Below the pieces are notes generated by a model. It had not been told where the DNA came from. It made no database searches and saw only the letters and a list, made by a program, of their open reading frames with translations. From positions 1-11,341 of the IMG/VR virus record IMGVR_UViG_2537561932_000025: 11,341 nucleotides of DNA. One strand, given 5' to 3'. Shown piece after piece: positions 2,007-2,662 of this stretch (its first letter is position 1; each line of letters opens with the position of its first letter). The position numbers and the translations under genes are program-made. Origin of the DNA: a virus. Lineage: Duplodnaviria > Heunggongvirae > Uroviricota > Caudoviricetes.

Positions 2007-2072
2007 TATATGTGAAATGCATATATTGATATAAATGCAGCAATATCAAATAGTTAAAAGGTTATATTTTTA

Positions 2073-2453
2073 ATGAATGATCTTGATAAGAAAAAGTACG
2101 ACCAAGTTATTGATTCTGTGAACTTCGCCCTTAGATCGTTGTCAGAGTTATTCGAAGCCCATGGAATGCATGGGATGTATGATCTAACGAATCCAAGCCT
2201 TGATGAGCTAAAATTAGTGTTTACAAGGATGAAAAACGGTGTTGACTCTATTGCTCAAAGCTTTGAGCACATGGTAGAGACAGCAAAGGATATGGATGCC
2301 GCAAGTGCAAGCATAAATGTTATGAACATCAAACAAGGATTGATGTATGCTGAATCACTATTGCTTGCTGTAGAGAAATTAGACTATGATAAATGTGTGG
2401 AAGCAAATACGCAGATAAAAACCCACGATCTTCCACCAACCCAATGGCCTTAA
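2073..2453 (+). CDS. Hypothetical 126-aa protein occupying the position where lambda carries rexA-rexB; no recognisable domain
   Basis: Sole long ORF between the cI stop and oL, on the same strand as cI and therefore in the pRM operon. It is AT-rich (21 G+C in its first 60 nt, about 35%). The translation MNDLDKKKYDQVIDSVNFALRSLSELFEAHGMHGMYDLTNPSLDELK... has no similarity to RexA or RexB that I can recognise. Confidence 0.65.
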   Translation: MNDLDKKKYDQVIDSVNFALRSLSELFEAHGMHGMYDLTNPSLDELKLVFTRMKNGVDSIAQSFEHMVETAKDMDAASASINVMNIKQGLMYAESLLLAVEKLDYDKCVEANTQIKTHDLPPTQWP

Positions 2454-2522
2454 TAGTAAATCAAGATTTCATATAGTCTATTTGAACTAGGCTAGTACCA
2501 TAAAATAAACCGAGGAAACGCA

Positions 2523-2624
2523 ATGAAAACCATGTCCACTCTGCACAAAGATGCAATGACCCTGAGATCTCTCATTAACGAGATTCTGGCTCGCTCGTCA
2601 GCACACACCAAAAAAGCCGCATAA
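2523..2624 (+). CDS. Hypothetical 33-aa basic peptide (MKTMSTLHKDAMTLRSLINEILARSSAHTKKAA)
   Basis: Below the 60-aa cutoff of the ORF track. It has a strong Shine-Dalgarno (gagga at 2512-2516, 6-nt spacer) and is followed directly by an intrinsic terminator. A candidate -35 ttgaac (2482-2487) lies upstream, but the spacing to any -10 is poor. Confidence 0.45.
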   Translation: MKTMSTLHKDAMTLRSLINEILARSSAHTKKAA

Positions 2625-2635
2625 TGCCTACATAA

Positions 2636-2662
2636 CCCGGCCTCAGCGCCGGGTTTTCTTTG
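2636..2662 (+). terminator. Rho-independent terminator ending the cI-side operon (tImm-like)
   Basis: Stem cccggc / gccggg with loop ctcagc, followed by ttttctttg. Confidence 0.7.

What the first reader, a model, noticed from the sequence alone, without database searches (positions are those of the whole stretch)
2007..2662. Uncharacterised two-ORF cassette replaces rexA-rexB in the lysogen-expressed cI operon
Between the cI stop and oL, where lambda carries the RexA/RexB exclusion system, this prophage has an AT-rich 126-aa ORF (2073-2453) and a 33-aa basic peptide ORF with a strong Shine-Dalgarno (2523-2624), closed by an intrinsic terminator (2636-2662). Neither product resembles RexA, RexB or any family I can name. 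Because the cassette is co-transcribed with cI from pRM, it would be expressed in the lysogen, which is the expected context for superinfection-exclusion or abortive-infection genes. The cI-oL interval is a recurrent exchange point for such cargo among lambdoid phages. The flanks are near lambda-identical while the insert is compositionally distinct, which points to horizontal acquisition. This is my leading candidate for an undescribed anti-phage or toxin-like system, possibly a large protein plus small peptide pair.
Basis: partly seen in the sequence, partly recalled or inferred. Interest (0 to 1): 0.85.

Follow-up and report, generated by a model that had tools for sequence, protein, structure and literature searches.

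The report
Protein-plus-peptide cassette replacing lambda rexAB
A lambda-type prophage carries, in place of the rexA-rexB exclusion genes, a conserved pair of genes of unknown function (a small acidic helical protein and an unannotated 33-residue basic peptide) that sits behind many different phage repressors and is a reasonable, untested candidate for a new prophage-encoded protective or addiction module.

Summary
Window 2008-2631 exactly replaces lambda rexA-rexB, from the cI stop to the rexB stop, and lambda's Timm terminator is kept.

It encodes a 126-aa acidic protein and a 33-aa basic peptide. The protein models confidently as a plain four-helix bundle and has no Pfam, NCBIfam, PADLOC, PDB or fold relative; its only family is PHROG 16322, function unknown. 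RefSeq does not annotate the peptide.

The peptide gene is genuine:
- It followed the large gene in every locus I examined, about 45 in all (Escherichia, Klebsiella, Pectobacterium, Pantoea, Aeromonas phages, and unnamed relatives down to about 26% identity).
- Its substitutions are mostly synonymous.
- Its ribosome-binding site is consistently stronger than the large gene's.
- Its C-terminus, K-K-A-A or K-K-V-A, is the most conserved part and resembles ClpX degrons.

The pair follows at least nine different cI-type repressors. It also follows mnt in a P22-like prophage, or sits at prophage edges. It occurs in 32 of 5,426 complete E. coli genomes.

Function is not established. The best guess, at moderate-to-low confidence, is a lysogen-expressed protein-peptide module for exclusion, abortive infection or addiction that depends on turnover of the peptide.

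Its anti-phage reading is plausible but untested. The claim of "near lambda-identical" flanks is overstated: they are 89-92% identical.

The parts
1293..2006 (+). cI repressor (237 aa, HTH_3 + Peptidase_S24), first gene of the lysogen-expressed operon; leaderless ATG as in lambda pRM transcripts
   Evidence: It lies within the 89.3% alignment to lambda 38802-37226.
2006..2072 (+). 66-nt AT-rich spacer between the cI stop and the first cassette gene. It holds two 7-bp inverted repeats (2006-2012/2020-2026 and 2026-2032/2043-2049) and a promoter-like TTGATA-17-AATAGT at 2026-2054. It has no terminator.
   Evidence: The inverted repeats are not conserved in other genera. The number of promoter-like matches is no higher than in shuffled sequence.
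2073..2453 (+). Gene for a 126-aa acidic (pI 4.8) soluble four-helix-bundle protein. RefSeq WP_021539111.1 'hypothetical'; PHROG 16322. It has a weak Shine-Dalgarno sequence.
2454..2522 (+). 69-nt intergenic spacer with a strong Shine-Dalgarno GAGGA (2512-2516) for the peptide gene and a promoter-like TTAATA-16-TATAGT at 2450-2477.
   Evidence: Homologues in Klebsiella, Pantoea and Pectobacterium carry a hairpin in this spacer.
2523..2624 (+). Gene for a 33-aa basic (pI 10.4) amphipathic peptide, MKTMSTLHKDAMTLRSLINEILARSSAHTKKAA. It is not annotated in RefSeq. The conserved C-terminus is K-K-A-A.
2634..2665 (+). Intrinsic terminator, equivalent to lambda Timm and retained from the lambda backbone.
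   Evidence: Homology to lambda 35828-35761. Annotated as Timm in HK542.
2815..2877 (+). oL3 (2815-2831), oL2 (2835-2851) and oL1 (2859-2875) with pL (-35 at 2849-2854, -10 at 2872-2877). This is the downstream boundary of the slot.
   Evidence: Sequence compared with the lambda operators (my reading). pL is.

Best explanation
A self-contained, horizontally mobile two-gene accessory operon (a 'moron') that is expressed in the lysogen, either by read-through from cI (pRM) or from a weak promoter of its own, and is closed by Timm.

It makes a small amount of an acidic four-helix-bundle protein and a larger amount of a basic amphipathic 33-residue peptide. The peptide's invariant C-terminal K-K-A-A tail most likely makes it a short-lived ClpXP substrate.

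I propose that the two products form a complex and act as a toxin-antitoxin-like sensor. When an infecting phage shuts off host or prophage gene expression, or perturbs ClpXP, the peptide-to-protein ratio collapses. The freed partner then blocks phage development or cell growth, giving exclusion or abortive infection. As a by-product the module would also stabilise the prophage.

Shown:
- the anatomy;
- conservation of the pair;
- coding status of the peptide;
- RBS asymmetry;
- placement behind repressors;
- absence of known relatives.

Inferred:
- co-transcription with cI;
- complex formation;
- ClpXP lability;
- any anti-phage or toxic activity;
- which partner is the effector.
For: Exact replacement of rexAB, with Timm kept and no intervening terminator.

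The pair is conserved in about 45 loci, down to about 26% identity of the large protein, and is always large gene, then peptide gene, then terminator.

The peptide is under purifying selection in its own frame.

The products carry opposite charges (-8 and +4) and have no membrane segment.

The peptide's RBS is systematically stronger: -7.2 against -2.9 kcal/mol across 10 loci, p=0.004.

The C-terminal [KQR]-[KE]-[AV]-A is the best-conserved part of the peptide. It matches ClpX C-motif-2 examples (MuA RRKKAI, YbaQ RAKKVA) and the C-motif-1 '-xAA' form.

The cassette follows nine different HTH+S24 repressors and mnt in a P22-like immI region. From my own knowledge of the P22 map, that is the position of sieA. 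Elsewhere it sits at prophage edges.

The cI-N slot holds abortive-infection genes in lambda (rexAB) and BTP1 (bstA) and is highly transcribed in lysogens (PMC8585504).
Against: No homology or fold similarity to any toxin, antitoxin or defence protein.

No catalytic motif. The only widely conserved residues are G31, G34, P41, N85, Q88, G89, L96 and C108.

No DNA-binding domain that could provide TA-style autoregulation.

The 69-nt gap between the genes, with terminator-like hairpins in some genera, is unusual for type II TA pairs.

No inactivated copies were found that would hint at toxicity. The apparent truncations are gene-calling artefacts and one in-frame deletion.

The degron reading rests on resemblance of four residues.

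Guilt by position is weak, because the slot also carries cargo of other or unknown function.
Confidence: 0.35

Rival explanations
1. Modulator of the prophage's own lysis-lysogeny switch or induction. This would be analogous to the regulatory roles reported for lambda RexA (assisting the transition to lytic growth) and RexB (inhibiting ClpXP-dependent degradation of lambda O and of antitoxins). Here the abundant peptide, with its ClpX-type tail, would act as a competitive decoy for ClpXP, with the bundle protein as its regulator.
For: The position is the same as rexAB, behind cI. The cassette also follows Mnt, another maintenance repressor. The peptide has a degron-like tail and a strong RBS. 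In Aeromonas, Klebsiella and Pantoea the cassette neighbours SOS genes, dinI with a LexA box and umuDC. The regulatory roles of RexA and RexB are from my own knowledge (Thomason et al. 2021; Schoulaker-Schwarz et al. 1991; Engelberg-Kulka et al. 1998) and were not checked here.
Against: There is no sequence or fold relation to RexA or RexB. The cassette also occurs at prophage ends and in an IS-flanked non-prophage context with no switch nearby. The prophage in this window is defective yet keeps an intact cassette. No LexA box was seen upstream of the cassette itself (my reading).
Confidence: 0.15
2. Lysogenic-conversion cargo that alters host physiology (stress tolerance, regulation, colonisation) and has no role in phage-phage conflict. 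For example, a small adaptor or anti-adaptor protein and a regulatory peptide acting on a host target.
For: The architecture is that of a moron with its own terminator, and the GC content is lower than the flanks. The hosts are gut, plant and insect-associated Gammaproteobacteria. The proteins are small, soluble and helical, typical of binders and regulators. Other cargo of unknown function shares the slot.
Against: The cassette is rare and patchy: 0.6% of complete E. coli genomes, and 18 clusters at 50% identity among 1.84 billion proteins. That is more typical of conflict genes than of a broadly useful host function. Its placement in the rexAB and sieA-equivalent slots is recurrent.
Confidence: 0.2
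3. A pure addiction (post-segregational killing) toxin-antitoxin pair that stabilises the prophage and gives no protection against other phages.
For: It is a two-gene unit with products of opposite charge. One partner is probably labile and over-produced. It persists intact in a degraded prophage.
Against: No homologues on plasmids, where addiction modules are common. No known toxin or antitoxin fold. No autoregulatory DNA-binding domain.
Confidence: 0.12
4. One or both ORFs are not real genes, and the interval is non-coding filler left by recombination.
For: RefSeq does not annotate the 33-aa ORF. The large ORF has a weak Shine-Dalgarno sequence.
Against: Both ORFs are conserved as proteins across genera with synonymous-biased change. 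The AlphaFold model has pLDDT 90. The peptide ORF is present in all loci examined.
Confidence: 0.02

Closest known systems
Lambda RexA/RexB exclusion operon
   Same: Identical genomic slot, from the cI stop to Timm. Two genes on the cI strand that are presumably transcribed in the lysogen.
   Different: No sequence or family relation. RexA is 279 aa, and RexB is a 144-aa protein described as a membrane ion channel (PMC8585504). Here the products are a 126-aa soluble acidic bundle and a 33-aa soluble basic peptide. The cassette is 624 bp against 1,397 bp.
Other cI-N slot cargo: BstA of BTP1-like prophages, the HK542 c104/c105 pair, HK022 Nun
   Same: Variable cargo inserted directly downstream of the prophage repressor, ending at a Rho-independent terminator. 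The slot is a recognised mosaic hotspot (PMC8585504 citing Degnan et al. 2007).
   Different: The proteins are unrelated. BstA is a single large protein with a DNA-based self-immunity element. HK542 carries 144-aa and 206-aa proteins. Nun's identity and placement are from my own knowledge and were not checked here. No phenotype is known for the present pair.
Type II toxin-antitoxin pairs with a protease-labile partner (for example Phd/Doc, degraded by ClpXP)
   Same: A small bicistronic unit with one acidic and one basic product. One product has a degron-like C-terminus and higher predicted translation.
   Different: No known toxin or antitoxin domain, no HTH or RHH for autoregulation, a long intergenic gap, and a candidate labile partner of only 33 aa. 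That ClpXP degrades Phd is from my own knowledge.
TomB (YbaJ)/Hha
Lambda CIII-type amphipathic peptide inhibitors of host proteases
   Same: A short phage-encoded amphipathic helix that could be both a substrate and a competitor of an AAA+ protease (inference).
   Different: CIII targets FtsH and is expressed from pL during infection, not in the lysogen. There is no sequence similarity, and no Lambda_CIII Pfam hit.

Membership tests
Lambda Rex (RexA/RexB) | Sequence membership in the RexA and RexB families | tested here: not met
   No Pfam, NCBIfam or PADLOC hit to the Rex families at E<=1. Megablast to lambda matches only the terminator, window 2632 onward.
Lambda Rex (RexA/RexB) | A membrane-embedded effector (RexB is described as an ion channel, PMC8585504) | tested here: not met
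   Both products are hydrophilic (GRAVY -0.33 and -0.26) and charged, with no hydrophobic span. The model is a soluble four-helix bundle.
Lambda Rex (RexA/RexB) | Location between cI and oL, co-oriented with cI and ending at Timm | tested here: met
Prophage moron / lysogen-expressed accessory cassette | Discrete insert present in some and absent from other closely related phages, with distinct composition and its own terminator | tested here: met
   It replaces rexAB relative to lambda. HK542 has different cargo in the slot. GC is 34-41% against 45-48%. The same cassette sits behind different repressors.
Prophage moron / lysogen-expressed accessory cassette | Transcription in the lysogen | not testable with these tools
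   Inferred only, from the absence of a terminator after cI and the shared strand. RNA-seq of a lysogen is needed.
Type II toxin-antitoxin system | Two adjacent co-oriented small genes encoding interacting proteins | tested here: inconclusive
   Adjacency and strict co-occurrence are shown.
Type II toxin-antitoxin system | Recognisable toxin or antitoxin domain, including a DNA-binding antitoxin | tested here: not met
Type II toxin-antitoxin system | Proteolytically labile antitoxin and growth-inhibiting toxin | not testable with these tools
   There is only a degron-like K-K-A-A or K-K-V-A C-terminus. Stability and toxicity assays are needed.
Type I toxin-antitoxin (hydrophobic peptide toxin plus antisense RNA) | Peptide with a transmembrane helix, and a cis-antisense or nearby sRNA | tested here: not met
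   The peptide has net charge +4, GRAVY -0.26 and no hydrophobic stretch. There is no Rfam family and no unusual RNA structure, z = -1.5.
HEPN-domain abortive-infection nucleases (for example HepS) | Helical bundle carrying a conserved R-x(4-6)-H catalytic motif | tested here: not met
   No Arg or His is invariant or nearly invariant in the family alignments. There is no HEPN Pfam hit.
Known anti-phage defence systems (PADLOC-DB v2) | Significant match to any defence-protein model | tested here: not met
   There is no hit for either window protein. The only hit is a 12.9-bit LmuB match for the Aeromonas homologue, consistent with coiled-coil noise.
TomB/Hha | Sequence-profile similarity to TomB (YbaJ) | tested here: not met
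   hhalign probability 0.4%. There is no YbaJ Pfam hit.
ClpXP substrates with a C-terminal degron (C-motif-1 or C-motif-2) | C-terminal sequence of the -xAA or basic-K-K-[AV]-x type | tested here: met
   The 11 distinct peptides end in KKAA, QKAA, RKAA, KKVA or KEVA. Reference motifs: ssrA LAA, MuA RRKKAI, YbaQ RAKKVA.
ClpXP substrates with a C-terminal degron (C-motif-1 or C-motif-2) | ClpXP-dependent degradation | not testable with these tools
   Requires half-life measurement in wild type against a clpX or clpP deletion, and with an AA-to-DD variant.

The most novel reading that the evidence does not exclude
The pair is a previously undescribed kind of two-component prophage immunity or addiction module. 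A highly translated, ClpXP-timed 33-residue peptide continuously neutralises (or is neutralised by) a four-helix-bundle protein with no known relatives. Any infection that interrupts gene expression or protease balance would trip the system. It would then be a new toxin-antitoxin-like family with a peptide partner, dedicated to the rexAB and sieA slots of temperate phages across Gammaproteobacteria.
Probability: 0.2. Interest if true: 0.7.

Novelty: new member of a known kind. Interest (0 to 1): 0.5.

Why it matters
The interval between the repressor gene and N is among the most strongly transcribed parts of a lambdoid prophage. In the model phages it holds the classic, still poorly understood Rex system.

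This work defines a compact (about 0.6 kb), portable, uncharacterised protein-plus-peptide module that occupies that slot behind at least nine different repressors and recurs in several genera. That gives experimenters a clean candidate for a new exclusion, abortive-infection or addiction mechanism. It also adds a conserved 33-codon gene that current annotation pipelines miss.

If the ClpXP-timer idea holds, it would link protease-controlled peptide turnover to prophage-encoded immunity. If it fails, the cassette is still a useful marker of cargo exchange in immunity regions.

Tried and rejected
- **Family and sequence searches.** Pfam, NCBIfam, PADLOC and PDB sequence searches gave nothing above threshold. 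The sub-threshold hits DUF7373_C, ATG17-like, LmuB and CorA were rejected as helical or coiled-coil noise.
- **First structure model.** The first AlphaFold model (20 close homologues) reached only pLDDT 68 and its Foldseek hits were meaningless.
- **TomB/Hha analogy.** Tested by hhalign and rejected.
- **HEPN idea.** Rejected because there is no conserved Arg or His.
- **RNA element.** No Rfam match, and the fold z-score is -1.5.
- **Conserved upstream operator.** The two 7-bp inverted repeats at 2006-2049 are specific to the E. coli copy.
- **LexA box upstream of the cassette.** None seen.
- **Truncated homologues as evidence of toxin decay.** These turned out to be gene-calling artefacts or an in-frame deletion.
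- **Plasmid homologues.** None.
- **Literature.** No paper mentions WP_021539111, and the searches on defence genes in lambdoid immunity regions turned up no paper on this pair.

Full report
**Setting**

The window is a lambda-immunity prophage read in the opposite orientation to the lambda map. The order is:
- an IS2 fragment and a truncated O gene;
- cII and cro on the minus strand;
- oR;
- cI at 1293-2006 (237 aa, HTH_3 + Peptidase_S24);
- the finding;
- oL/pL;
- N at 3253-3579.

The window is identical to part of the chromosome of E. coli 503440 (NZ_CP025881). There the large ORF is annotated as hypothetical protein WP_021539111.1 and the small ORF is not annotated.

**Check of the observation**

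- a 126-aa ORF at 2073-2453;
- a 33-aa ORF at 2523-2624, preceded by GAGGA at 2512-2516;
- a stem-loop plus T-run at 2634-2665.

GC falls to 34-41% across the cassette, against 45-48% in cI.

BLAST against lambda gave two aligned blocks. Window 444-2007 matches lambda 38802-37226 at 89.3%. Window 2632-2977 matches lambda 35828-35489 at 91.6%. So window 2008-2631 (624 bp) replaces lambda 37225-35829 (1,397 bp, rexA plus rexB), exactly from the cI stop to the rexB stop, and Timm is retained. "Near lambda-identical" is therefore an overstatement, although the three oL operators read as lambda's. No terminator-like site lies between cI and the first ORF.

**The large protein**

Sequence searches found no named relative:
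- No Pfam, NCBIfam or PADLOC family reaches threshold.
- The only family is PHROG 16322, function unknown.
- A profile search of PDB sequences found nothing.

The family is small. There are 23 clusters at 90% identity among 5.8 billion proteins. An exhaustive profile search found 18 representatives at 50% identity among 1.84 billion proteins. All full-length members are single-domain proteins of about 110-134 aa. Named members come from Escherichia, Klebsiella, Pectobacterium, Pantoea, Citrobacter, Cronobacter, Xenorhabdus and an Aeromonas phage.

A first AlphaFold model from close homologues was weak, at pLDDT 68. A second database search with a divergent alignment gave a 31-sequence alignment. 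The resulting model has pLDDT 90.1 and pTM 0.82. It is an up-down four-helix bundle with helices 3-36, 43-71, 74-101 and 105-117.

Fold searches were uninformative:
- Foldseek against PDB and BFVD gave nothing significant.

The protein is acidic (pI 4.8, net charge -8) and has no hydrophobic span. Conserved positions are G31, G34, P41, N85, Q88, G89, L96 and C108. There is no conserved Arg or His, which argues against a HEPN nuclease.

**The peptide**

RefSeq omits this gene, but the comparative evidence is strong. A small ORF follows the large gene in all of these:
- all 32 IMG/VR loci;
- the Klebsiella, Pectobacterium, Pantoea, E. coli TL20 and Aeromonas phage AsXd-1 loci;
- two distant metagenomic relatives, where the companion is 53 or 44 aa.

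Among the five 33-codon orthologues, 8-13 codon differences per pair are synonymous in the annotated frame, against 0-5 in the other two frames. Third-position changes dominate.

The peptides are basic (pI 9.7-10.5), amphipathic and not hydrophobic.

The most conserved feature is the C-terminus. The eleven distinct peptides end in KKAA, QKAA, RKAA, KKVA or KEVA, and the last residue is always Ala. This resembles published ClpX recognition signals:
- C-motif-1: ssrA LAA and other -xAA ends.
- C-motif-2: MuA RRKKAI and YbaQ RAKKVA (PMC9775585; PMC12723719).

That is a resemblance, not a demonstration.

The peptide gene consistently has the stronger Shine-Dalgarno sequence. Mean anti-SD duplex energy is -7.2 kcal/mol against -2.9 kcal/mol over ten distinct loci. 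The peptide's is stronger in nine and equal in one (Wilcoxon p=0.004). An intrinsic terminator follows the peptide gene in the loci I read.

**Genomic contexts**

In E. coli the cassette is in 32 of 5,426 complete genomes. It is always chromosomal, single-copy and at least 99.5% identical. None is on a plasmid. Among sequenced phage isolates only Aeromonas phage AsXd-1 has a homologue, at 46% identity.

The E. coli copies sit behind three kinds of repressor:
- true lambda cI;
- chimeric repressors that share only the lambda-like C-terminal domain;
- unrelated repressors, followed by a 30-nt remnant of the lambda cI 3' end.

This indicates one ancestral insertion that spread by recombination.

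More divergent homologues (85% and 36-37% identity) again lie between a repressor and an N-like gene. All nine distinct upstream proteins tested are HTH + Peptidase_S24 repressors.

Other contexts:
- In a P22-like Pectobacterium prophage the pair follows mnt in the immI region. From my own knowledge of the P22 map, that is where sieA lies.
- In Aeromonas phages it lies between a dinI-like gene with a LexA box and tail-fibre genes.
- In Klebsiella it lies next to umuDC-like genes at a prophage edge, and in Pantoea next to umuC-like and tail-fibre-assembly genes.
- In one low-GC metagenomic lineage it follows a small HTH gene between IS1595 copies.

The same slot in the lambda-immunity phage HK542 holds a different two-gene cargo and keeps Timm. 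[quoted passage not shown]

**What it most likely is**

The solid conclusion is that this is a genuine, autonomous, horizontally mobile two-gene accessory operon. It encodes a protein and a peptide that are always inherited together. It is preferentially installed in lysogen-expressed positions of temperate phages.

Everything about function is inference. The clues are:
- products of opposite charge;
- systematic over-translation of the peptide;
- its degron-like tail;
- placement where exclusion and abortive-infection genes reside.

From these, my preferred model is a toxin-antitoxin-like protein-peptide pair whose balance depends on continuous synthesis and ClpXP turnover of the peptide. Its disturbance during infection would give exclusion or abortive infection, with prophage stabilisation as a side effect. 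I put this at about 0.35.

I cannot say which partner is the effector. Gene order and charge suggest the canonical acidic-antitoxin-then-basic-toxin layout. The degron-like tail and strong RBS suggest the opposite.

The rivals are:
- a switch or induction modulator, or a ClpXP decoy echoing the reported regulatory roles of RexA and RexB (0.15; those roles are cited from memory);
- host-directed lysogenic conversion (0.2);
- pure addiction (0.12);
- non-genes (0.02).

The evidence against the preferred model:
- No relation to any known toxin, antitoxin or defence protein.
- No catalytic motif or DNA-binding domain.
- A long intergenic gap, with hairpins in some genera.
- No decayed copies that would suggest toxicity.

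**Comparison with known systems and novelty**

It is not a Rex system, a type I TA, a HEPN Abi, TomB/Hha or any PADLOC system; the defining features of each were tested and not met. It does meet the definition of a prophage moron in the known cI-N hotspot. I therefore file it as a new member of a known kind (repressor-linked prophage cargo), built from protein families with no characterised relative.

It is a good and cheap experimental candidate of about 0.6 kb, and it exposes a conserved small gene missed by annotation. Uncharacterised cargo in this hotspot is expected rather than surprising, so I score interest at 0.5.

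Noticed in passing
window 2978-3251 (ORF 3120-3251, + strand): Between nutL (boxB at 2933-2947) and the N start at 3253, the window has 264 bp where lambda has 116 bp (lambda 35488-35373). 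The extra DNA encodes a 43-aa ORF, MNNEALKEMIAKLLEDARRIQEVEPNAGTQSRIDEAMKLLKGE. It is annotated in RefSeq as WP_001701111.1 and matches PHROG 32391 (function unknown, E 9e-34). This is a small gene inserted in the N leader, immediately upstream of N and separated from it by one base.
   Followed up: partly
window 25-560; L001 3278-4661: An IS2 copy interrupts the lambda-type replication gene O. The window starts inside the IS2 transposase (25-405), and the N-terminal O fragment (330-560, minus strand, beginning MTNTAKILNFGR, the lambda O ClpX degron) is annotated as an incomplete replication protein. An IS100 lies a few kb further on. The prophage is therefore probably replication-defective.
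   Followed up: partly
window about 9300-11341; L050: After the torI-like excisionase gene no integrase is annotated, and ARAGORN finds no tRNA gene in the window. The next genes are the csc sucrose-utilisation cluster: an MFS transporter at window 10094-11341 (minus strand), then cscA and a LacI-type regulator, followed by dsdX/dsdA. The prophage end looks truncated or rearranged.
   Followed up: partly
L033-L035, about 3357-3695 (between the repressor and the cassette): In some distant relatives a 113-aa DUF3024 protein is inserted between the cI-type repressor and the protein-peptide pair. The slot can therefore stack several cargo genes.
   Followed up: no
L003 3340-3650 (Aeromonas phage AsXd-1) and L026-L031: A dinI-like 87-aa gene, preceded by a LexA-box-like CTGTATATTCAAACAG, lies about 350 nt upstream of the cassette in Aeromonas phages. 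Klebsiella and Pantoea copies lie convergent with umuDC-like genes. The repeated neighbourhood with SOS genes may be coincidental clustering of morons.
   Followed up: no
L048 (E. coli GCA_018807465.1), equivalent to window 2237-2257: One E. coli copy has an in-frame 21-nt deletion that removes seven residues (HMVETAK) of helix 2 of the large protein, while the peptide gene is intact. Several database 'truncated' homologues (73-75 aa) are mis-called starts at internal Met53, not real truncations.
   Followed up: yes
L004 5385-5455, L005 5379-5462, L008 5379-5450: In Pectobacterium, Klebsiella and Pantoea the spacer between the large gene and the peptide gene contains a GC-rich hairpin. In Klebsiella and Pantoea it is followed by a T-run, so it looks like a terminator. 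The E. coli copy lacks it. This may set the protein-to-peptide expression ratio or mark an independent peptide transcript.
   Followed up: no
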